Shown: positions 3,775-48,437 of the stretch, piece by piece
Position numbering within the stretch: position 1 is the stretch's first letter
How the letters are laid out: each line of letters begins with the position of its first letter
NCBI GenBank assembly: GCA_001793855.1
Contig: MGIR01000001.1
Span: 8,645-72,644, forward strand
Source of the DNA: Candidatus Wolfebacteria bacterium RIFCSPLOWO2_01_FULL_45_19
Lineage (GTDB): Bacteria > Patescibacteriota > Minisyncoccia > UBA6257 > GWB1-45-9
Length of the DNA: 64,000 nt
Direction: 5' to 3'
Position numbers and translations under genes: made by a program
Notes under the pieces: model-generated
What the model was told of the DNA's origin: nothing
Seen by the model: the letters and a program-made list of their open reading frames with translations, nothing else
Databases searched by the model: none

Positions 3775-4815
3775 TCATGATATGTCCTTTGGTTGCATGG
3801 GCACATTTAGAATATTCTTATAAAATTCAAGCTTCTCTATCGCGACGCCAGTGCCGCGCACAACGCAAGTTAGAGGGTCATCAATCACAACGGTTTTAAC
3901 ACCAAGCTCTTTTTCTATAAGCTGATCCATGCCTCTCAACAAACTGCCGCCGCCGCAAAGATGCACTCCGCTTTTCAGCGTATCGCCTACCAATTCCGGC
4001 GGAGTCATTTCTATAACGTCTCGAATGGCGTCTATTATCAAACGGAGAGAACGCGACATCGCCACGCGCGCCTGAGTATTTTTTATGTTAATTTCTCTCG
4101 GCAAGCCCGTTGCCATATCCCTGCCCCTGATAAGCATTTCAAGACGTTCGTCTATCGGCGTTGCGGAGCCGACTGTTTTTTTTATTTCCTCTGCCGTTGG
4201 CTCGCCTATCGCAAGCTTGAATTCTTCACGAACGAAACGAATCAGATCTTCATTTAATTTTTCTCCCGCGACTTTCAAGCTTAGCGCAGTGACTATTCCC
4301 CCAGTCGATATAACCGCGATTTCCGTGGTGCCGCCGCCTATATCAACTATCATGCTCGCGGTTGATTCGTTTATCGGCAAATCCGCGCCAAGCGCCGCGG
4401 CAAGCGGCTCTTCAATAATATATGCCCTGGCGGCTCCGGCACCGAGAACGGCGTCTTCCACCGACTTGCGCTCAACTTCGGTCAAATTGATCGGAACGCC
4501 TATAACCGCACGGCGATACCTGAAAAAACTGCTTCCAAGCTTTTGAAAAAATTTCTGAAGCATTTCCTGCGCCATATCAAAATCTGATATAACTCCGTTT
4601 ACCAGCGGCTTAACAACCTCTATATGAGATGGGGTGCGGCCAAGCATTCGACTGGCTTCGTGTCCTATCGCGTGTATCTGACTTGTTTTTGTATTCAGGG
4701 CGACCATCGACGGCTCGTTTATGACAATTCCTCTGCCAACTTGATAAATGAGCGAATTAGCGGTTCCAAGGTCAACTCCAAAATCTTGTGAAGCAAATTT
4801 TAAAAATTTAGTCAT
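3775..4815 (-). CDS. mreB: rod shape-determining actin homologue MreB
   Basis: DLGTANSLIY and the full actin fold signature. Confidence 0.9.
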   Translation of the reverse strand: MTKFLKFASQDFGVDLGTANSLIYQVGRGIVINEPSMVALNTKTSQIHAIGHEASRMLGRTPSHIEVVKPLVNGVISDFDMAQEMLQKFFQKLGSSFFRYRRAVIGVPINLTEVERKSVEDAVLGAGAARAYIIEEPLAAALGADLPINESTASMIVDIGGGTTEIAVISTGGIVTALSLKVAGEKLNEDLIRFVREEFKLAIGEPTAEEIKKTVGSATPIDERLEMLIRGRDMATGLPREINIKNTQARVAMSRSLRLIIDAIRDVIEMTPPELVGDTLKSGVHLCGGGSLLRGMDQLIEKELGVKTVVIDDPLTCVVRGTGVAIEKLEFYKNILNVPMQPKDIS

Positions 4816-4839: not shown

Positions 4840-6093
4840 TTATAATAATTTCAATATCTTCTCCAAATTCATCGTCCGCATTTCATCAGAATCACGCCGC
4901 TTAACTTCAATCTCATTTTTTGTCTTGTCGCTGATTACCAGCCTGTACGGAATGCCAATCAGGTCGGCGTCGTTGAATTTTTCTCCGGCACTCACGCCTT
5001 CGCGGTCGTCATACAATACTTCAACTCCCGCCTTTTGCAATTTGTCATATATTTTCTGCCCTCTGTCTTCTGTTTTCTGTTTTCTATTTATTGAAATCAG
5101 ATGCGCTTTAAACGGCGCAATGTTCTCCGGCCAGACTATCCCCCTTCCGTCATGAAAAACTTCCACAGCGGTTCCCATCGTGCGACCGAGACCTATGCCG
5201 TATGATCCCATAACAACGTATTTTTTTTCGCCTCGCTCATCGGTGAACCGCAAATTAAACGCCTCAGAATATTTAGTGCCTAAAGGAAAAATATTCCCAA
5301 CTTCAATAGCGCGCTTCTCCATTACCGCGCCTCCACATTTCGGACATTTGTCTCCGGTTTTAAGTTTTGATATTTCTTTATTTTCCGCGTACTCGCACTT
5401 TTCGCAGACGCAAATGGTATCCTCGCCAACGTCGGCAAGAATTTGGAATTCGTGGGTGTTGCTTACGGTAAATTCACCGCCGGCGGCCAAGGTGTAAATT
5501 GATTTAAGGCCGCAACGTTTAAATATTTTATGGTAGGCCTTGGCGACTTTTTGATAATATTTATTCAGATCATTTTCAGAAACGTGGAAGCTATACAAAT
5601 CCTTCATTAAAAACTCACGCCCTCTCAACAGGCCGGATTTGGCTCGCGGCTCATGCCGGAATTTGGTCTGAATCTGATAGGCGGCAAGTGGCAAATCTTG
5701 ATAAGAATTGACGTAACTCGCGGCAATTTCGGCAATAACCTCTTCGTGAGTCCAGCTTATGTTGAAAGACGGCTCGTCTTCGTTTCCGGCAAACACTTTA
5801 TACACCACTCCGACATCCCATCGCCCGGTCGCGGTTAAATAACGCTTGTCATGCAGGGCGGCCATCAACATTTCCTGACCACCGATGGCATCCATCTCTC
5901 CGCGAATAATATCCGCGATTTTTTTAAGCACCCGCCAGCCCAAAGGCAAAAAAGAATAAACGCCCGCGGAATTTTTGTACACAAAACCTCCGCGCGTAAG
6001 CAGTTTAGCGTTAACCGATTCTTCGTCCTTCGGCGCCTCCCGCCTTGTTTTTGAAAAAAGTTCTGATTGTCTCACGCAATCATTATAAAACAC
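4840..6093 (-). CDS. proS: prolyl-tRNA synthetase (short form without editing insertion)
   Basis: Class II motif 2 FRHEPRAKSGLLRGREFLMKDLYSF matches ProRS. C-terminal CxxC..CxxC. Confidence 0.75.
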   Translation of the reverse strand: MFYNDCVRQSELFSKTRREAPKDEESVNAKLLTRGGFVYKNSAGVYSFLPLGWRVLKKIADIIRGEMDAIGGQEMLMAALHDKRYLTATGRWDVGVVYKVFAGNEDEPSFNISWTHEEVIAEIAASYVNSYQDLPLAAYQIQTKFRHEPRAKSGLLRGREFLMKDLYSFHVSENDLNKYYQKVAKAYHKIFKRCGLKSIYTLAAGGEFTVSNTHEFQILADVGEDTICVCEKCEYAENKEISKLKTGDKCPKCGGAVMEKRAIEVGNIFPLGTKYSEAFNLRFTDERGEKKYVVMGSYGIGLGRTMGTAVEVFHDGRGIVWPENIAPFKAHLISINRKQKTEDRGQKIYDKLQKAGVEVLYDDREGVSAGEKFNDADLIGIPYRLVISDKTKNEIEVKRRDSDEMRTMNLEKILKLL

Positions 6094-6907
6094 AAAATTA
6101 TTTTAGTCATGCCCAATAATTAGGGCTTACGAAGCTCTAAATATTACTCCAAAGTTATTTGCGATATATCGCGTGAATCCATCTCCTTGAGCCAGCTCGT
6201 CATTGATTTTTTATACTGCTCCGGCCCATCAAAAAATTTAAGCAAGAGATCTCTCTGCGTTACGGAGGGAAAATTCTTTTTACCGATATAATCCGGAAAA
6301 CTGCTCCATCGGTAGTTTTCTAAATAGGCAAACGCTTTTTTATAATCTTTGACATCTCGCTCTCTCCAATTTGGCGCGAAATAATCAAGCGGATTGCAGT
6401 GAATATAAAATGGGAGGTGAATAAAATGCGCGTCATTATCGACGGCGATACATTTATATCTTCCTTCAAAAAGCGCGCCGGCTCTTTTGTATTTTAGATT
6501 AAAATAATTCGCGTATCCCATATTCAATCGCCGCATAAAAAGCGTCAACCATTCTTTAGAGCGCGCCCTGACGAGTAAATGATAATGATTTTTCATTAAA
6601 CAAAAAGTTAACATCTCAGCCAACAATATCCGCGGCCTTCGCTGTTTTTGTTGCCTCTCAATATTAGGGCTTGCGAAGCCCGAAGGATTAGTTTTGAAAA
6701 GATAGGTATTATTTGGAAGCGGCTGAGCGTCGTTAAATTCAAATAAATTATGAATAAATCTCATAAAATCCTCTTCATCCAAAAAAAGTTTTCTTTTGTC
6801 AACTCCTCTGCTTAAAATGTGGTAAATATTTCCAGGTATAATTTGCGGCCTCATAATAAACATACTCTAGCGCAACACTTAGGGCTTCGCAAGCCCTAAG
6901 TGTTGCG
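6094..6907. mobile_element. REP/RAYT unit: IS200-like tyrosine transposase gene flanked by TTAGGGCTT-NGC-AAGCCCTAA hairpins
   Basis: Hairpins at ~6100-6128 and 6871-6907 (16-17 bp stem), plus a third copy inside the ORF at ~6663-6683. Confidence 0.6.
6144..6863 (-). CDS. REP-associated tyrosine transposase (RAYT, IS200/IS605 Y1 family)
   Basis: YHILSRG and NHYHLLV HuH motif. Confidence 0.7.
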   Translation of the reverse strand: MFIMRPQIIPGNIYHILSRGVDKRKLFLDEEDFMRFIHNLFEFNDAQPLPNNTYLFKTNPSGFASPNIERQQKQRRPRILLAEMLTFCLMKNHYHLLVRARSKEWLTLFMRRLNMGYANYFNLKYKRAGALFEGRYKCIAVDNDAHFIHLPFYIHCNPLDYFAPNWRERDVKDYKKAFAYLENYRWSSFPDYIGKKNFPSVTQRDLLLKFFDGPEQYKKSMTSWLKEMDSRDISQITLE

Positions 6908-31712: not shown

Positions 31713-31994
31713 GATTTATATTATAGCAAAACTTTTCTCGTTGTCCCAAGAGTCGAGACTTGATGGCTCATCGACTAATACCATCCCGCCGAAGCGGGGT
31801 CGACACTAGTTTTCATTATTGAAAACTAAGTTTAATTAATCCACGCACAGCTTCCGCTACGCGTGCCTTGTTACGACTTCGTCCGTGTCACCGAACTTAC
31901 CCTAACCCCGCAAAACGGAGTTTTAGGTATTCCCGGCTTCCTTGACGTGACGGGCGGTGAGTACAGGACTCGAGAACGTATTCACCGCGGCATA

Positions 31995-32029
<35 letters not shown>

Positions 32030-32193
32030 AGGGCGAGTTGCAGCCCTCAATCCGAACTTGGGCCGGTTTTAAGGGATTAGCTCCACCTTACGGTTTGGCA
32101 ACCCTTTGTACCGGTCATTGTAGCACGAGTGTAGCCCAGGGCATCAGAGGGCCATGCGGATTTGACGTCGTCCCCTCCTTCCTCCCAGCACTT

Positions 32194-32359
32194 TGTTCGC
32201 AAACGAACAAAGCAATTTCTAAACTCTAATATCTAAATCCTAAACAAATTTTAAAAATCAAATCTCAAATTCGAAACGTTTGGAACATTTGAATTTGGAA
32301 TTTTGAGATTGTTTAGAGATTAGGATTTCGAATTTAGGATTTCTTTGCGCTTGTGCGCA
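32194..32359. repeat. ~165 nt palindromic heptamer-repeat element forming an expansion in the 16S h40 loop
   Basis: Closed by CAGCACTT/AAGTGCTG. The arms tctaaactctaatatctaaatcctaaac / gtttagagattaggatttcgaatttaggattt match the element at 21795. Confidence 0.7.
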
Positions 32360-32725
32360 AAGTGCTGGGCAGTTTTGCCTGACACGTATAACAGACAATA
32401 GGGGTTGCGCTCGTTTCCCCACTTAAGGGAACGTCTCACGATACGAGCTGACGACAACCATGCAGCACCTGTCCTGACGTCCTTGAGAGACAACACGCCT
32501 TTCAGCATGTCTTCGTCAAGATTTCTAGCCCTGGTAAGGTTCCTCGTTTAGTATCGAATTAAACCTCATGCTCCACCGCTTGTGCGAGTCCCCGTCTATT
32601 CCTTTGAGTTTTAAGCTTGCGCTCGTACTTCCCAGGCGGCCTGCTTAACGCGTTAGCTTCGCCACTCCGAGGGTCGATACTCGAAACAGCCAGCAGGCAT
32701 CGTTTAGGGCGTGGACTACAAGGGT

Positions 32726-33856
32726 TGAATTTGTTACTTCGCGACAATAGTATTATTGTCACGCGAGCCGAACATTTCTGTCGGCTTCTCTATGTTGCCA
32801 TAGAGTCCGGACTATATCTTTATCTGAAAGCCGTCCATCGAGCCAGTTTCTTCTCGTATTCGGATAAAATAACCGAACGAGGAAAGCGGCTCAAACTTAC
32901 AACCTCAGATATCCAGCGTTCTTGAAATTGAGAATCTTTATAGAGAAGTATTGCTTTGCGCAACATGTCCGGCGTTGGTATATGCGGCAGAATGATGCGA
33001 AGAAACTTTTTTAATTCCTCCTGCGATCTGATCCATATCCGCCAATATTGCCGCCGCTCTCCTTTATAGATACGGGATATGGGAGATACGATATTTTTTA
33101 TATCCCATACTACTTTAAGGTAGCGAGATAGTATTTTGACAGATTCTTTGTCAAAGCCATCGGTACAAAATACTCCCTTTCTTCCTCCGTAACTAATAAG
33201 TGAGCCATCATCACACCACCATACGGCGAGCGATAACGGGGTCATTCGGTTCAGCCAAGTGCGTCTAATGCGCAATCGGTTATTTTTATACGTTAAGCGA
33301 TGCAATTCAGTTAACGCTGGCAGATTTCTGCTTATAAACCGCCACTTGCTGTTTACGCTGAAACCGTCGGCCCTTTGGACACTAATACTTTTCTCTCGCG
33401 CTATCTCTTGAAGCATATCTGCTTTCCATAAGAGATAATCTTTTTGTGTTTCCGAATGACGAATTTGTAAATTCGCATTGGCACATTTTTTTTGAATCTT
33501 CAACGAACCGTCTCCTAGGATTGTTCCTAAAATAACGGCTCGCGCTTGATCCGACAAAGGCACATACTTTTTATCATTTTGCATATTATTATTTTATACG
33601 CTCATGACATAATGCGCCAACTATCTTAACTCAATTTCATAGTCTCTACGGGGTCAAACAAAATGAAATTTGAACTTTCAATTTTGCATTCTGTCGACTT
33701 CCCTCGGGATTGTCCGTCCGACAGGACGGAGTTCCCCGATACAGCTAGATGCTCACCCCGACGTCGCCGTCGAGGGGGACACCTTTGACAACCCCGATTT
33801 ACATCGGGGCTCTTTGTTTCTACGGGCAAAAGGAAAACCCTCCACAAAGATTTCGT
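32726..33856 (-). mobile_element. group I intron in 16S (near E. coli position ~790) carrying a homing endonuclease ORF; boundaries approximate
   Basis: It interrupts GGATTAGATA | CCCTTGTAGTCC. P7 elements GTAGAGACTATG (R) and AAGATATAGTCC (S) are present. Confidence 0.75.
32820..33584 (-). CDS. LAGLIDADG homing endonuclease (double-motif)
   Basis: ILGDGSL and WCDDGSL motifs. Confidence 0.8.
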   Translation of the reverse strand: MQNDKKYVPLSDQARAVILGTILGDGSLKIQKKCANANLQIRHSETQKDYLLWKADMLQEIAREKSISVQRADGFSVNSKWRFISRNLPALTELHRLTYKNNRLRIRRTWLNRMTPLSLAVWWCDDGSLISYGGRKGVFCTDGFDKESVKILSRYLKVVWDIKNIVSPISRIYKGERRQYWRIWIRSQEELKKFLRIILPHIPTPDMLRKAILLYKDSQFQERWISEVVSLSRFPRSVILSEYEKKLARWTAFR

Positions 33857-34457
33857 ATCTAATCCTTTTTGCTCCCCACGCTTTCGTGTCTCAGAGTCAG
33901 GAACGTCCCAGCCAGCTGCCTTCGCCTTTGGTGTTCCGCACGATATCAACGGATTTCACCCCTACACCGTGCGTTCCACTGGCCTCTGACGTCCTCTAGT
34001 TCGGCCGTATCTCTTGCAGCCTCAGGGTTGAGCCCCGAGATTTAACAAAAGACGCACCGAACATCCTACACACGCTTTACGCCCAATAAATCCGGATAAC
34101 GCTTGAGGTCTACGTTTTACCGCTGGTGCTGGCACGTAGTTACCCACCTCTTTCCACAGGGTACCGTCAACCTCGCGCGTAGCGCGAGAACCGAAAAACA
34201 CATGAACGTAAAAACGTAAGAACAAGTTGTTCTTTGGTTTATAGGTTCTTTAGTTTTTTAGTTCTTGTGCTACGCACAAGGCTTCTTCCCCTGCTATCGC
34301 GGTTTACGACCCGAAGGCCTTCTTCCCGCACGCGGCGTCGCTCGATCAGGCTTTCGCCCATTGTCGAATATTCTCGACTGCTGCCTCCCGTAGGAGTATG
34401 CACCGTGTCTCAGTTGCATCGTCGGGGAACAGGCTCTCACCCCCCCTACCGGTCATA

Positions 34458-34492
<35 letters not shown>

Positions 34493-34817
34493 CAGACCTA
34501 AGCCACTCCTGAAGCGATTTGCATCTTTACTCCGACACCCTTGCGGGGTCGGAGATTATTTGGAATTACCTCGTCTTTCGACGAGCTATGCCAAACTTCA
34601 GGGTATGTACTAAGGCGTTACTGACTCGTTCGCCACTGCCTCGCGCCTTGCGCGAGAACAAAAAAACGAAAGAACAAAAGAACTTAAGAACAAAAAGTTC
34701 TTGGGTTCATAAGTTCATGGGTTTTTTAGTCCTTGTGCAAAACACAAGGCCGTTCGACTTGCATGCCTTATCCACGCCGCCAGCGTTCATCCTGGACCAG
34801 GATCAAATCCTCAATAA

Positions 34818-34892
34818 GAGCTTTCAGCTTTTAGCTTATAGCTTATAGAAGGTAACCCCCCTAACAGCTAACAGCTATCAGCTAACAGCTCG
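34818..34892. repeat. agctNNN heptamer palindrome immediately upstream of the 16S 5' end
   Basis: agcttttagcttatagcttatag ... ctaacagctaacagctatcagctaacagct. Confidence 0.6.
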
Positions 34893-35296
34893 AAATACTT
34901 GGGACAACAAGAAAAATTTTGCTTGTTTTACTTAATTTGGACTCTTTTTTATTTTCCTTTTTTATTTTTAAAACAACGGTCAAATCTCTCTGGATTCAAT
35001 AAAACATCCACCGCTAACCCGTCTGCGACGGACTAGCGGTGGACGTCTTCAAATTAAATTATAGAATTGATTTTAAAATGTTAATCGTCCCATCCTTCAA
35101 TCATGTTTCCAGTATAACCGCAGCAAAAAACTTGTCAAGTGATGATTTTAATTGGAAGAATTAAACGCTGTGGATAACTCACTTACATACTCAACGATCG
35201 TTAAGTATGTAAGTAAATTGTTATACTTGCCCCCCATATCTATGCATAGATGTGGGGGCTTGCTTTCAAAAATGGTTTATTATAATATGTGAAACT

Positions 35297-35557: not shown

Positions 35558-36274
35558 ATGGTTCAAAAAGTAATTCTTGAAATTCGCGCCGGGGCCGGTG
35601 GAGACGAAGCCGGCATTTTCGCCGGCGACCTCGCGCGCATGTACCAAAAATATGCCGCTCAAAAGGGATGGAGATTTTCTATTATTGATTTTAATCAAAA
35701 CGATTTAGGTGGATATAAAAATTTGTCGGCTGAAGTAGCCGGCGAGAATGTTTATGAGATTTTGAAATATGAGATTGGCGTACACCGCGTTCAACGAATA
35801 CCAAAAACCGAAAAGGGCGGACGCGTGCACACTTCAACCGCCTCGGTCGCGGTTTTGCCGGAAGTGGAAGCAAAAGAAGTAAACTTAAATCTAGGCGATT
35901 TGGAAATAACTTTTTCACGCGGAGGCGGACCGGGCGGACAAAACGTAAACAAGGTTGAAACTGCGGTAAGAGTACTCCACAAACCGACTGGCATCGTCGT
36001 CGCCTCGCGCTCCGAACGTTCCCAGCATGCCAACCGCGAGAAAGCGATGGAGATACTTCGCGCCAAACTTTACGAAGAACAGCGGCGCCAGGCAGTTGGC
36101 TCAATTACCGAACTCCGCCGCGAGCAAATCGGCTCCGCGGAGCGTTCAGAAAAAATACGCACCTATAATTTTCCGGAAGACCGAATCACCGACCACAGAA
36201 TCGGAAAAAAATTCCATAACATAGAAAAGATTCTTGACGGCAACTTGGACCCTATCGTGAAAGCGTTCAGCTAA
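35558..36274 (+). CDS. prfA: class-I peptide chain release factor lacking N-terminal domain 1 (RF1-like, PKT tripeptide, GGQ)
   Basis: It aligns to E. coli RF1 domains 2-4 from [13 protein letters not shown] onward. GGQ is present. There is no room upstream for domain 1. Confidence 0.65.
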
Positions 36275-36289
36275 ATTTTTCGCGTGACG

Positions 36290-36560
36290 CGCCGCCCGTA
36301 TTCCTACCTGAACCGAACCGGTAAGTTTTTCGCGGGTCCTGCCGCCAGTTTTTCTCGCAGACACGCTATCAAATTCCCCAGCGAGGAATTTGCGCTCGCT
36401 CTCGGCCTCGCTCCTCCGACTGCGAGTCGGAGACCATGCCCGCTCGGCCTGCGAGACGGTCTGCTCGCAATAACTGGCGTCACCCGCGAAAACCTACATT
36501 GGTTCCCCAAGAAATACAGGCGGCGTATAAAAAACCTTGTTAAAATCATTTTTTCGCGTT
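36290..36560 (+). other. GC-rich structured non-coding region (candidate ncRNA or infB leader)
   Basis: About 60% GC against ~45% background. It has a long nested helix (CGCGGGT...ACCCGCG, CGCCAGTT/AACTGGCG, GCAGAC/GTCTGC, CTCCGACTgcgAGTCGGAG). The in-frame reading does not look like IF2. Confidence 0.4.
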
Positions 36561-36564
36561 ATTA

Positions 36565-37981
36565 TATGGGAACTATGGCAGAGAAACGTTCGTCAATTGT
36601 TGTTGTAATGGGCCACGTTGACCACGGCAAGACAACACTCTTGGATTACATTCGTAAAACAAACGTAACCGCTAAAGAAGCCGGTGGAATTACGCAGTCC
36701 ATCGGAGCATACGAGATAACCCACCCTTCAACGAGCTCAGGGCAAGCAAGAAAAATAACATTTATAGACACGCCGGGGCATGAGGCGTTTGTGAAAATGC
36801 GCGCGCGAGGAGCCGGAGTTGCCGACTTGGCGATTCTTGTTGTTGCCGCCGACGACGGAGTGAAACCGCAGACAAAAGAGAGTATAAAAATTCTTAAAGA
36901 AACCGAAACGCCGTTCGTTGTGGCGATAAATAAAATTGACAAGCCGAACGCCGATGTTGAAAGAACCAAAGCTGATTTAATGAAAGAAGACGTTTTACTT
37001 GAAGGATTCGGCGGCAGTATAAGCTGGCAGGCGATTTCCGCGAAAACCGGACAAGGCGTGAACGAACTGCTTGATCTTGTTTTGTTGTCGGCTGAAGTTG
37101 AGGACTTTGTTTATAATCCTGAGAATAAAGCGCGCGGAGTTATTGTTGAAGTGGAACAAAGTAGCAGCAGGGGAATTGAAGTATCGGCGGTTGTTAAAGA
37201 CGGCGTGTTGAGGGTCGGAGACGAAATAGCCACTCCGACCGCGGCTGGACGCGTGAAGATTCTTGAAAATTTTTTGGGTAAACGGGTTAAAGAACTTTCG
37301 CCTTCAAGTCCTGCTCTTATTATTGGTTTTGAAAACTTGCCGCAAGTCGGCGAAGAGTTTATGGCTGGCAACGTCGTTTTGAATGTATTGGAAACGCCGC
37401 CGCGGTTAAAGGCCATTCCTAAAACGGGCGCGATAAACATTATTTTGCGCGCGGACGTAGCCGGTTCTTTGGAGGCGATAGCGGATATTTTGAAAGCTTT
37501 GCAAGGAATTGAAATCATAGACGCGACAGTCGGCAAAGTTACTGGCGGCGATGTCCAGCTTGCCATTTCAACCGGAGCCGTAATCGTAAATTTCAAATCC
37601 AAAGTTGAAAAATCAGCGGAAATATTTGCCAAAAACAACGAGGTAAGAATAATTTCCTCAGAAATAATATATAAACTCGTAAAAACAATTGAGGACTTGC
37701 TTAAAGAAGGCGTGAAAGAAATAAAAGGCGAGTTGGAAATACTTGCCGTATTCAGCAAAAAAGGCAATCGTCAAGTTGTGGGCGGCCGCGCTACCAAAGG
37801 TATGCTAAGAAAAGGACGCGCGGAAATATGGAAAGGCGAGGAGCGTTTGGGAGATGGCAAAATTCTTAATCTTCAGGAATCCAAAAAAGATGTGACACAA
37901 TTGTCAGTGGATAAAGAGGGAGGATTGTTTGTGGATTCGGCTGTTATAATAGAAAAAGGCCACCGCGTTATACAGAAATGA
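36565..37981 (+). CDS. infB: translation initiation factor IF-2 (G domain to C-terminus; minimal form)
   Basis: [13 protein letters not shown]1 motif ~10 aa after MGTMAEK. The track ORF extends to 36284, but that part does not look protein-like. Confidence 0.8.
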
Positions 37982-43454: not shown

Positions 43455-43601
43455 ACGAAGCGCCGATGTAGATTTTACGGCGCTTTTTTGATACTTGCGT
43501 GACTTGCGTCTTTTTTTGCGTTTTTTTAAAAGGTGGGGTATTGTTATATGTAGGTGGGGAATTGTGGATAAATATGGGGATAACCACCGCATTCTGGGGA
43601 T

Positions 43602-48189: not shown

Positions 48190-48290
48190 TTTGGCCTAGG
48201 ACATCCCGCACCTTTCGTTTTAAAACGAAAGGTGCGGGACAAGTCAGCTTCCTTGCCCCGCATTAAAATTTAAGCAAAACTTAACAATAT

Positions 48291-48363: not shown

Positions 48364-48403
48364 CGGAATTTTTAGTGCGTGGTCAAGACGAGAGCGTTAT
48401 AAA

Positions 48404-48437
48404 ACGAATACGCGCGGCGCCGCGCGTATTCGTTTTT
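48404..48437 (+). terminator. rho-independent terminator
   Basis: ACGAATACGCGCGGCGCCGCGCGTATTCGTTTTT. Confidence 0.7.

What the first reader, a model, noticed from the sequence alone, without database searches (positions are those of the whole stretch)
36290..36560. GC-rich, extensively base-paired ~270 nt element between the release factor gene and infB
About 60% GC against a ~45% background. It has nested long-range pairings (CGCGGGT/ACCCGCG, CGCCAGTT/AACTGGCG, GCAGAC/GTCTGC) and a central perfect hairpin CTCCGACT-gcg-AGTCGGAG.

The ORF track reads it as an IF2 N-terminal extension. The translation lacks IF2-like features, and the IF2 G-domain begins right after MGTMAEK at 36565. It is a candidate ncRNA or regulatory leader.
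Basis: seen in the sequence. Interest (0 to 1): 0.55.

Follow-up and report, generated by a model that had tools for sequence, protein, structure and literature searches.

The report
Nested palindromic repeat element, not infB leader
The GC-rich folded stretch in front of infB is real and non-coding, but it is a copy of a repeated, apparently mobile hairpin element with a nearly invariant core of about 97 nt shared with other Parcubacteria-type bacteria, and this window's copy is a hybrid of two genomic copies.

Summary
Window 36275-36528 is about 60% GC against 45% overall, all the named pairings exist, and it folds far better than shuffles on both strands. It folds best on the minus strand.

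- **Not an IF2 extension.** Orthologous IF2 proteins are 475-500 aa.
- **Matches no Rfam family.**
- **Unlikely to be an infB leader.** A promoter-like site conserved in a sister species lies downstream of the element, and sister species have no element at either flanking locus.

What it is instead:
- It is a set of nested imperfect palindromes around a unit of about 172 nt.
- That unit occurs at two loci in this Candidatus Wolfebacteria species, after prfA and before infB.
- Its inner part, about 140 nt, recurs at unrelated loci in two AT-richer contigs from other bacteria, one of which shares gene order with the window.
- The core of about 97 nt is about 97% identical between these organisms, although a syntenic tRNA-Val is only 72% identical.
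- The closing stem has diverged through compensatory changes.

The window's copy joins the 5' flank of the prfA copy to the core and 3' flank of the infB copy. The prfA-infB adjacency therefore arose by recombination or mis-assembly across the repeat.

Best reading: a new mobile, structured element, with how it moves unknown. A genuine new ncRNA family on the minus strand is not excluded.

The parts
35558..36274 (+). prfA-like release factor 1 (238 aa, lacks the N-terminal domain). Its stop codon directly abuts the element.
   Evidence: ORF list. Pfam PCRF + RF-1 on identical proteins. Relatives are 238-250 aa.
36275..36322 (.). Outer 5' layer of the palindrome. It is identical to 'copy 1', the copy that follows prfA in other assemblies.
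   Evidence: Three-way alignment A1. L085-L090 match the window up to 36494.
36323..36495 (.). Repeated unit of about 172 nt. It is near-identical in both genomic copies and is bounded by inverted ends AGTTTTTCGCGGGT / ACCCGCGAAAACCT.
   Evidence: (repeat I3).
36341..36480 (-). Part homologous to elements in other bacteria (L100, L101): closing stem, core and two hairpins. The minus strand is the folding strand.
   Evidence: Covariance model R1 scores 163.7 bits here and 146-169 bits in L100/L101. Consensus fold is -42.3 kcal/mol on the minus strand against -32.1 on the plus strand.
36362..36458 (-). Nearly invariant core, about 97 nt. It differs from L100/L101 by two substitutions outside the apical hairpin.
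   Evidence: Alignment A2, columns 29-135.
36370..36392 (-). Invariant hairpin: 8 perfect pairs CAAATTCC/GGAATTTG, or 10 pairs with a 3-nt loop in the consensus fold.
   Evidence: (repeat I8).
36414..36432 (-). Apical hairpin, the variable part of the family. Its loop differs between copy 1 and copy 2, and L100 has a different, longer hairpin here.
36496..36528 (.). Outer 3' layer. It is identical to 'copy 2', the copy upstream of infB in L097, and is absent from the prfA-linked copy.
36537..36565 (+). Promoter-like site for infB (TTGTTA-17-TATTAT). It is conserved in the sister species and lies downstream of the element.
   Evidence: Similarity to L081 starts at 36531.
36575..37981 (+). infB (short IF2, about 468 aa). 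An alternative ATG is at 36566.

Best explanation
Window 36275-36528 is non-coding DNA built as nested imperfect palindromes.

**What it is**
- Its inner 140-172 nt is one copy of a dispersed, insertion-like structured element.
- The element has a nearly invariant core of about 97 nt, predicted (not established) to form a three-way junction, and a fast-evolving closing stem that keeps its pairing.
- It sits inside further hairpin layers specific to this lineage.
- It was inserted into intergenic DNA of this Candidatus Wolfebacteria species at two or more loci. It is neither an infB leader nor part of IF2.
- The copy in the window is a hybrid of the prfA-linked and infB-linked copies. The prfA-element-infB arrangement results from recombination between the two copies or from an assembly join across the repeat.

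**Shown**
- The element is non-coding and structured.
- It has two copies in the species.
- It is absent from sister species at both loci.
- It has homologues at unrelated loci elsewhere.
- The closing stem has changed by compensatory substitutions.
- The window's copy is a hybrid.

**Inferred**
- The element spreads as a hairpin-forming single strand (the window's minus strand) that lands in the loops of existing hairpins. The HUH/Y1 transposases encoded in this genome may mobilise it.
- Once in place it mainly acts as a substrate for recombination.
- It may also act as a transcription barrier or a stabiliser of RNA 3' ends.
For: **1. Absent at the orthologous sites in sister species**
- In L091, L092 and L095 (RF1 81-83% identical), prfA overlaps the convergent SLT_2 gene or lies 15 nt from it.
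- L081 and L082 have tRNA-Ser(GCT) about 120 nt or less upstream of infB with no element.

**2. Two copies in the same species, even in the same assembly (ERZ4903072)**
- One lies after prfA (L085-L090). The other lies between tRNA-Ser and infB (L097).
- They are identical from 36323 to 36494 apart from one substitution and a changed loop in the apical hairpin. Their flanks differ.

**3. Polymorphic between strains**
- In strain GW2011_GWB1_45_9 (L083, L084, L098, L099) the tRNA-Ser/infB spacer holds different hairpin rods instead.
- The spacer after prfA differs between assemblies by the presence or absence of hairpins.

**4. Homologues elsewhere in other gene contexts**
- L100 lies between mraZ and tRNA-Val. 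L101 lies between murB and hpf.
- L100 and L101 share a unit of about 190 nt at 90% identity.

**5. The core is far more conserved than the hosts**
- The core is about 97% identical.
- Between the same organisms tRNA-Val is 72% identical, L10 43% and L12 66%, and GC content is 38% against 45%.

**6. The closing stem keeps its pairing**
- Four pairs have changed on both sides. Overall, 97.6% of cells are paired, against 26-48% when the partners are slid.

**7. The minus strand is the folding strand**
- The single-sequence fold has 7 G-U pairs on the minus strand against 2 on the plus strand. Several G-U pairs are conserved in the consensus fold.
- A copy-1 variant gives a G-U pair on the minus strand and a C-A mismatch on the plus strand.

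**8. The window's copy is a hybrid**
- The window equals copy 1 up to 36322 and copy 2 from 36422.
- The 565-aa ORF created by this junction is known from one contig only.
- The junction coincides with a switch in GC skew. In the alternative arrangement, the flanks continue the skew of their own side.

**9. Y1 transposase genes are present**
- One is at window 6144-6863. Another is at L098 3253-3966.
- Their only NCBIfam hit is the REP-associated tyrosine transposase model, below its cut-off.
Against: - Only two copies in this species and three lineages in all were found. The copy number per genome is unknown.
- Target-site duplication is unclear. TA flanks copy 2 on both sides, but copy 1 has it on the 5' side only.
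- The short hairpins that flank the Y1 genes are not found in the element, so the link to those transposases is circumstantial.
- A core far more conserved than its own closing stem points to sequence-level selection, which fits a functional RNA as well as a mobile element.
- No copy was found in phage, plasmid or IMG/VR collections.
- Nothing here shows transcription or movement.
Confidence: 0.55

Rival explanations
1. It is a genuine, so far undescribed structured ncRNA gene family of Parcubacteria-type bacteria. It would be transcribed from the window's minus strand, about 140-190 nt long, with a three-way-junction core. It would act in trans or as a ribozyme or protein partner. The extra palindromic layers in this species would be secondary.
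For: - The 97-nt core is about 97% identical between organisms whose tRNA-Val is 72% identical. The closing stem meanwhile has diverged by about 30% through compensatory changes, which argues for selection on the core sequence and not just recent transfer.
- The only two substitutions in the core (A2 columns 29 and 100) are complementary, C-G to U-A, in an alternative helix.
- G-U pairs favour one strand.
- There is no coding signal. The apical hairpin shifts the reading frame between homologues.
Against: - Sister species lack it at both loci.
- It is duplicated with near-identical sequence in one species, and one copy is missing from a strain that is 99.5% identical.
- It has no conserved gene context.
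- No promoter-like or terminator-like site was found at the element on either strand.
- The inner helices are invariant, so they are not supported by covariation.
- Single-sequence folds disagree on the inner structure.
Confidence: 0.27
2. It is a cis-acting 5' leader, or a read-through regulator, of infB on the plus strand.
For: - It lies directly upstream of infB in this window.
- It folds stably on the plus strand too.
Against: - A conserved promoter-like site lies between the element and the start codon.
- Conservation with the sister species and with other assemblies starts at 36529-36531.
- IF2 genes 99.5-99.9% identical at the DNA level are preceded by other sequences in other strains.
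- The other copy of the same unit lies after prfA, next to a convergent gene.
- The plus strand folds less well.
Confidence: 0.03
3. It is simply a strong hairpin that ends or insulates the rpmE-prfA transcript, with no other identity. It would be a terminator or a block to 3' exonucleases that grew by local palindrome expansion.
For: - It begins one base after the prfA stop codon.
- In the other arrangement it lies between convergent genes.
- This genome uses long perfect hairpins in many spacers.
Against: - No terminator-like site (stem followed by a T run) was found at the element on either strand. By eye, the T runs precede the stems and the A runs follow them, on both strands.
- Copy 2 lies between divergent genes, tRNA-Ser and infB.
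- Local growth does not explain a near-identical core at unrelated loci in other bacteria.
Confidence: 0.1
4. It encodes an N-terminal extension of IF2, as in the deposited 565-aa annotation.
For: An open frame runs from GTG 36284 into infB.
Against: - The closest IF2 relatives are 475-500 aa.
- The same gene carries a different 'extension' (542 aa) or none (471 aa) in other assemblies.
- Three of the six frames are open across the element, as expected for GC-rich palindromic sequence.
- The 81-aa minus-strand ORF, searched against 1.84 billion proteins, matched only similar spurious ORFs.
Confidence: 0.01

Closest known systems
MITEs and similar bacterial palindromic repeats (Correia elements, Rickettsia palindromic elements, ERIC); comparison from general knowledge
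   Same: - Non-coding, 100-250 nt, with inverted ends, and folds into a long hairpin.
- Found in intergenic DNA at more than one locus.
- Present or absent between close strains.
- Acts as a recombination or assembly breakpoint.
   Different: - Only two copies were seen in the species.
- No clear target-site duplication and no matching DDE transposase was found.
- The core is far more conserved across hosts than the ends, with compensatory change in the stem.
- It is nested inside further palindromes.
REP/REPIN elements with RAYT (Y1/HUH) transposases
   Same: - Imperfect palindromes in extragenic space.
- The genome encodes Y1_Tnp proteins whose only NCBIfam hit is the REP-associated tyrosine transposase model.
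- Those genes are flanked by inverted short hairpins.
   Different: - The element is 5-10 times longer than a REP and is branched.
- The hairpins that flank the Y1 genes are not in the element.
- The Y1 proteins score below the curated RAYT cut-off.
- High copy number was not shown.
Structured RNAs tied to mobile elements (IS200/IS605 omega RNAs, IS110 bridge RNAs, TIGR stem-loop arrays; PMC12045711)
   Same: - A highly structured non-coding module of 100-200 nt with a conserved scaffold.
- TIGR-type systems occur in CPR bacteria.
   Different: - No TnpB, IscB, IS110 or Tas gene lies next to any of the five contexts seen.
- There are no large loops carrying box C/D-like motifs and spacers.
- It is not in a tandem array.
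- No Rfam match.
Housekeeping ncRNAs of similar size (6S, SRP, RNase P)
   Same: Its size, its GC-rich stable fold and its intergenic position.
   Different: - No covariance-model match.
- It is duplicated, polymorphic between strains and absent from sister species at these loci.

Membership tests
Any Rfam 15 family (RNase P, 6S, SRP, tmRNA, riboswitches, ribozymes) | Covariance-model score at or above the family's gathering score | tested here: not met
   - No match at gathering scores in the window.
- The only match with E<10 in 36150-36700 (SAM_alpha, 11.5 bits) lies inside infB, outside the element.
- No match over the homologue in L100, or over the other rods in L083 and L086.
infB 5' leader / cis-regulatory UTR | Lies between the gene's promoter and its start codon | tested here: inconclusive
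   A promoter-like TTGTTA-17-TATTAT at 36537-36565, conserved in L081, lies downstream of the element. It is a prediction only, with no transcript data.
infB 5' leader / cis-regulatory UTR | Conserved upstream of orthologous infB genes | tested here: not met
   - Absent in L081 and L082.
- Replaced by other sequence in L083 and L098, whose infB region is 99.5-99.9% identical to the window's at the DNA level.
IF2 N-terminal domain | A homologous extension in orthologues | tested here: not met
   - The closest IF2 relatives are 475-500 aa.
- The 'extension' differs between assemblies: 565, 542 and 471 aa.
MITE | Terminal inverted repeats | tested here: met
   AGTTTTTCGCGGGT / ACCCGCGAAAACCT, 14 nt and 93% complementary, bound the duplicated unit.
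MITE | Target-site duplication | tested here: inconclusive
   TA flanks copy 2 on both sides (L097). Copy 1 has TA on the 5' side only.
MITE | Several copies, with filled and empty sites | tested here: met
   - Two loci in the species.
- Empty orthologous sites in sister species.
- The infB-linked copy is missing in strain GW2011_GWB1_45_9.
- Whole-genome copy number was not measured.
MITE | A related autonomous element whose transposase matches the ends | not tested
   Only 64 kb of window plus short contigs were available. No candidate was seen.
REP/REPIN-RAYT system | Short (20-40 nt) palindromes at high copy number in extragenic space | tested here: not met
   - The element is 140-250 nt.
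- There is one copy in the 64-kb window.
REP/REPIN-RAYT system | A RAYT gene flanked by the same repeats that are dispersed in the genome | tested here: not met
   - The Y1 genes are flanked by their own 15-19-nt hairpins, which are absent from the element.
- The Y1 proteins score 29-40 bits against a cut-off of 80 for NF047646.
Intrinsic terminator | GC-rich hairpin followed by a run of U | tested here: not met
   The scan found no such site at the element on either strand. By eye, T runs precede the stems and A runs follow them.
TIGR stem-loop array (PMC12045711) | Tandem hairpin units whose loops carry two 8-12-nt spacers flanked by box C/D motifs, next to a Nop-domain Tas gene | tested here: not met
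   - A single element, almost fully paired, with 3-4-nt loops.
- The neighbours are rpmE, prfA, infB and rbfA.
- The rest of the window was not scanned for Tas.

The most novel reading that the evidence does not exclude
The nearly invariant core of about 97 nt, on the window's minus strand, is a new class of functional structured RNA or single-stranded-DNA module in Patescibacteria. It could be, for example, a ribozyme, a guide scaffold or a recognition scaffold that drives the element's own spread into hairpin loops. Sequence-level selection on it would be stronger than on tRNAs.
Probability: 0.25. Interest if true: 0.75.

Novelty: new variant of a known kind. Interest (0 to 1): 0.45.

Why it matters
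- **Annotation.** The deposited 565-aa 'hypothetical protein / IF2' (OGM91579.1) includes a spurious 94-97-aa extension, depending on the true start codon.
- **Assembly.** The 218-kb contig is either chimeric or rearranged at about 36.3-36.5 kb. The apparent GC-skew minimum there should therefore not be read as a replication origin.
- **Biology.** Small, streamlined CPR genomes are not expected to carry dynamic, nested palindromic repeats. One such repeat has a core conserved far beyond the level of the host tRNAs, which makes it a concrete, testable candidate for a new mobile structured element or ncRNA family in an uncultured lineage.

Tried and rejected
**Searches that found nothing useful**
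- Rfam at gathering scores and at E<10: no family matched.
- ARAGORN found no tRNA or tmRNA in the element.
- blastn against the window found no second copy in 64 kb.
- The genome-contig scan with IF2 was swamped by the universal MGHVDHGK pattern. Its best hit was 42% identical and held no homologue of the element.
- An exact 23-mer scan of JGI metagenomes returned only the contig already known.
- IMG/VR exact patterns and phage and plasmid blastn found nothing.
- A concatenated six-frame peptide query with poly-G linkers failed, probably because the linkers saturated the word index.
- Literature searches on CPR with RAYT, MITE, palindromic repeats or structured RNA found nothing specific.

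**Ideas considered by eye and dropped**
- *Hammerhead.* CUGANGA-like strings occur in the neighbouring 'type B' rod, but their order and conservation do not fit, and Rfam gave no hit.
- *HDV-like ribozyme.* GGCAUGGUC and CCUCGCUGG resemble HDV sequence, but the order of helices does not fit.
- *K-turn or box C/D.* Not followed up.
- *integron attC.* The R'/R'' boxes are not met.
- *6S RNA.* There is no central bubble.
- *DnaA boxes next to the L100 and L101 copies.* They are better explained as MraZ operator repeats.
- *attL/attR of an island.* The segment between the copies would hold essential genes.

**TIGR stem arrays.** Rejected on anatomy.

Full report
**1.

Window 36275-36528 lies between the stop codon of a 238-aa RF1-like gene (35558-36274) and infB.
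- GC reaches 0.60 in 150-nt windows over 36300-36499, against 0.454 for the whole window.
- The central hairpin pattern does not occur in shuffled sequence.
- The region 36275-36565 folds to -107.2 kcal/mol on the plus strand (z = -5.5) and -130.4 kcal/mol on the minus strand (z = -6.9).
- The first in-frame ATG is at 36566. Alignment with the sister-species gene favours 36575 as the start.

**2. Not coding, and not a known RNA**
- The closest IF2 relatives are 475-500 aa.
- The identical IF2 has been called at 565, 542 and 471 aa in different assemblies, because the upstream sequence differs.
- Three of the six frames are open across the element.
- Rfam gives nothing at gathering scores. At E<10 the only match in 36150-36700 lies inside infB, outside the element.
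- The organism is a Candidatus Wolfebacteria (Parcubacteria) population from groundwater. The 565-aa ORF is OGM91579.1, on a 218-kb contig.

**3. Not an infB leader**
- In the closest other species (L081, IF2 74% identical), DNA similarity starts at window 36531.
- That stretch holds TTGTTA-17-TATTAT directly before the start codon. The same site is at window 36537-36565.
- In L081 and L082 a divergent tRNA-Ser(GCT) lies about 120 nt or less upstream of infB, with no element.

**4. The element is an insertion, and it is repeated**
- Relatives with RF1 81-83% identical (L091, L092, L095) have prfA overlapping the convergent SLT_2 gene or lying 15 nt from it.
- Six other contigs of the same species (99.3-99.9% identical) follow the window only up to 36494. 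They then continue into another hairpin rod ('type B') and SLT_2-L25-FBA, not infB.
- infB-side contigs match the window only from 36529 (L083, L084, L098) or from 36288 (L097).
- L097 carries a second copy of the element between tRNA-Ser and infB.
- The two copies are identical from 36323 to 36494 apart from one substitution and a changed loop in the apical hairpin. That stretch is bounded by inverted ends AGTTTTTCGCGGGT / ACCCGCGAAAACCT. The outer flanks differ.
- Both copies occur in one assembly, ERZ4903072 (L087 and L097).
- In strain GW2011_GWB1_45_9 the tRNA-Ser/infB spacer holds other rods instead: 'type C', plus a 73%-identical paralogue of type B.
- The spacer after prfA varies between assemblies by the gain or loss of hairpins.

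**5. The window's copy is a hybrid**
- In alignment A1 the window equals copy 1 up to 36322 and copy 2 from 36422. The stretch between is common to both.
- The resulting prfA-infB adjacency, and its 565-aa ORF, are known from one contig only.
- The cumulative GC skew of the window has its minimum at about 36 kb, and gene orientation switches there.
- In the alternative arrangement the flanks keep the skew of their own side. The SLT_2 side is -0.08, like the window's left part. The left flank of infB in L098 is +0.09, like the right part.
- The switch is therefore produced by the junction. It reflects either a recent inversion between inverted copies or a chimeric assembly across a repeat of about 170 nt. 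I judge mis-assembly somewhat more likely, but could not test it.

**6. Homologues in other bacteria**

I searched the spurious 81-aa minus-strand ORF over the element against 1.84 billion protein representatives. Three similar spurious ORFs came back. The contigs of two of them were fetched.
- L100 (49-kb contig, GC 38%) has the element between mraZ and tRNA-Val/L12.
- L101 has it between murB and hpf.
- L100 shares the gene order L10-L12-tRNA-Val...mraZ with the window. Even so, tRNA-Val is only 72% identical, L10 43% and L12 66%.
- The element's core (window 36362-36458) differs from L100 and L101 at two positions outside the apical hairpin.
- The closing stem has diverged with four pairs changed on both sides, and 97.6% of cells are paired against 26-48% when partners are slid. 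This rests on one evolutionary split, so it is suggestive only.
- The inner helices are invariant, so covariation says nothing for or against them. Single-sequence folds disagree on the inner structure.
- The two core substitutions are complementary in an alternative helix.
- The consensus fold is -42.3 kcal/mol on the window's minus strand against -32.1 on the plus strand. Conserved G-U pairs, and a copy-1 variant that is G-U on the minus strand but C-A on the plus strand, point the same way.
- L100 and L101 share about 190 nt at 90% identity in different contexts.
- In L100 the unit separates MraZ-box-like repeats from mraZ by about 330 nt. In the window such boxes lie about 20-40 nt from mraZ.
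- Model R1 finds only the known copies in 213 kb of held sequence.
- Phage, plasmid and IMG/VR collections have none.

**7. Interpretation**

Several facts fit a mobile or otherwise spreading structured repeat best (confidence 0.55):
- absence from sister species;
- duplication with identical sequence;
- polymorphism between strains;
- different contexts in other bacteria;
- nesting inside the loops of other palindromes.

How it moves is inferred, not shown.
- The genome encodes two Y1/HUH transposase paralogues. Their only NCBIfam hit is the REP-associated tyrosine transposase model, below its cut-off.
- Such enzymes act on single-stranded hairpins. However, the short hairpins that flank those genes are not found in the element.
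- A TA duplication is seen at one copy only.

The main rival is a genuine new ncRNA family on the minus strand (0.27). It is kept alive by a core that is much more conserved than its own stem and than the host's tRNA, which implies selection on sequence. The two readings are compatible if the conserved core is the functional RNA or DNA module of a mobile element.

The remaining readings are unlikely: a plain terminator (0.10), an infB leader (0.03) and an IF2 extension (0.01).

**8. Novelty and score**

The element belongs to no Rfam family and meets the definition of neither REP/REPIN nor a classical MITE in full. It resembles them in behaviour. I rate it a new variant of a known kind, with interest 0.45. 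It has practical consequences for annotation and for the integrity of this contig.

Noticed in passing
window 31829-34818 (-): The 16S rRNA gene spans 2,990 nt for a 1,533-position model, so it holds about 1.4 kb of insertions. These include a LAGLIDADG endonuclease ORF (32820-33584). L085 lacks about 96 nt at 32655-32752. A sub-threshold group I intron hit lies in the matching part of L086 (160-421).
   Followed up: partly
window 35558-36274 (+): The RF1 homologue is only 238 aa and starts 4 nt after rpmE, so the usual N-terminal domain is missing. The 120 closest relatives are mostly 238-253 aa, so this is a trait of the lineage and not a truncation.
   Followed up: partly
window 6144-6863 (-), with hairpins at 6121-6139, 6665-6683 and 6880-6898; L098 3253-3966 (-): A Y1_Tnp (IS200-like/RAYT-like) gene has three copies of its own 19-nt hairpin (TAGGGCTT-NNN-AAGCCCTA): upstream, downstream and inside the coding sequence near codon 60. 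The 62%-identical paralogue in L098 has the same layout with a different hairpin (CGTAGTCSGACTACG).
   Followed up: partly
window about 34.8-36.5 kb: The cumulative GC skew is V-shaped. Gene orientation switches here, from mostly minus-strand genes on the left to mostly plus-strand genes on the right. This would look like a replication origin, but it coincides with the hybrid repeat junction.
   Followed up: partly
window 36537-36577: The -10-like TATTAT ends at 36565, 9 nt before the likely start codon at 36575. In L081 the gap is 8 nt. infB may be leaderless or have a leader of only a few bases.
   Followed up: no
L086 3879-4053; L083 776-935; L083 536-775: Other hairpin 'rods' occur in the same species. 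Type B exists as two paralogues that are 73% identical. They share a core (CTCGGAGGCGC.AAAAGCTTGGT ... TTTT.GCGCCGAGAG), have compensatory changes and carry different inserted hairpins. Type C is a rod of about 240 nt. All of them fold better on the minus strand of these loci. Hairpins are gained or lost between L085, L086 and L087.
   Followed up: partly
window about 48204-48239 and 48401-48436; 34849-35251 (-): Perfect 16-bp palindromes flank tRNA-Glu. The AT-rich region upstream of the 16S gene holds several perfect hairpins of 20-26 bp (z = -7 on the minus strand).
   Followed up: no
L100 about 5290-5340; window 43563-43583: Repeats of the form TTATCC(A/C)C(A/C) look like DnaA boxes but sit upstream of mraZ in both genomes, so they are probably MraZ operator repeats. 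In L100 the element lies between them and mraZ.
   Followed up: partly
L098 about 3976-3990; L101 about 2620-2640: The 9-mer GTAGTCGGA is shared between the hairpin that flanks the L098 Y1 transposase gene and the apical hairpin of the element in L101. The structural register differs, so this may be chance.
   Followed up: no
L101 3270-3440; L100 10095-10131: The AT-rich genomes that carry the homologous element also hold other nested palindromic rods. One 37-nt piece is identical between L100 and L101.
   Followed up: no
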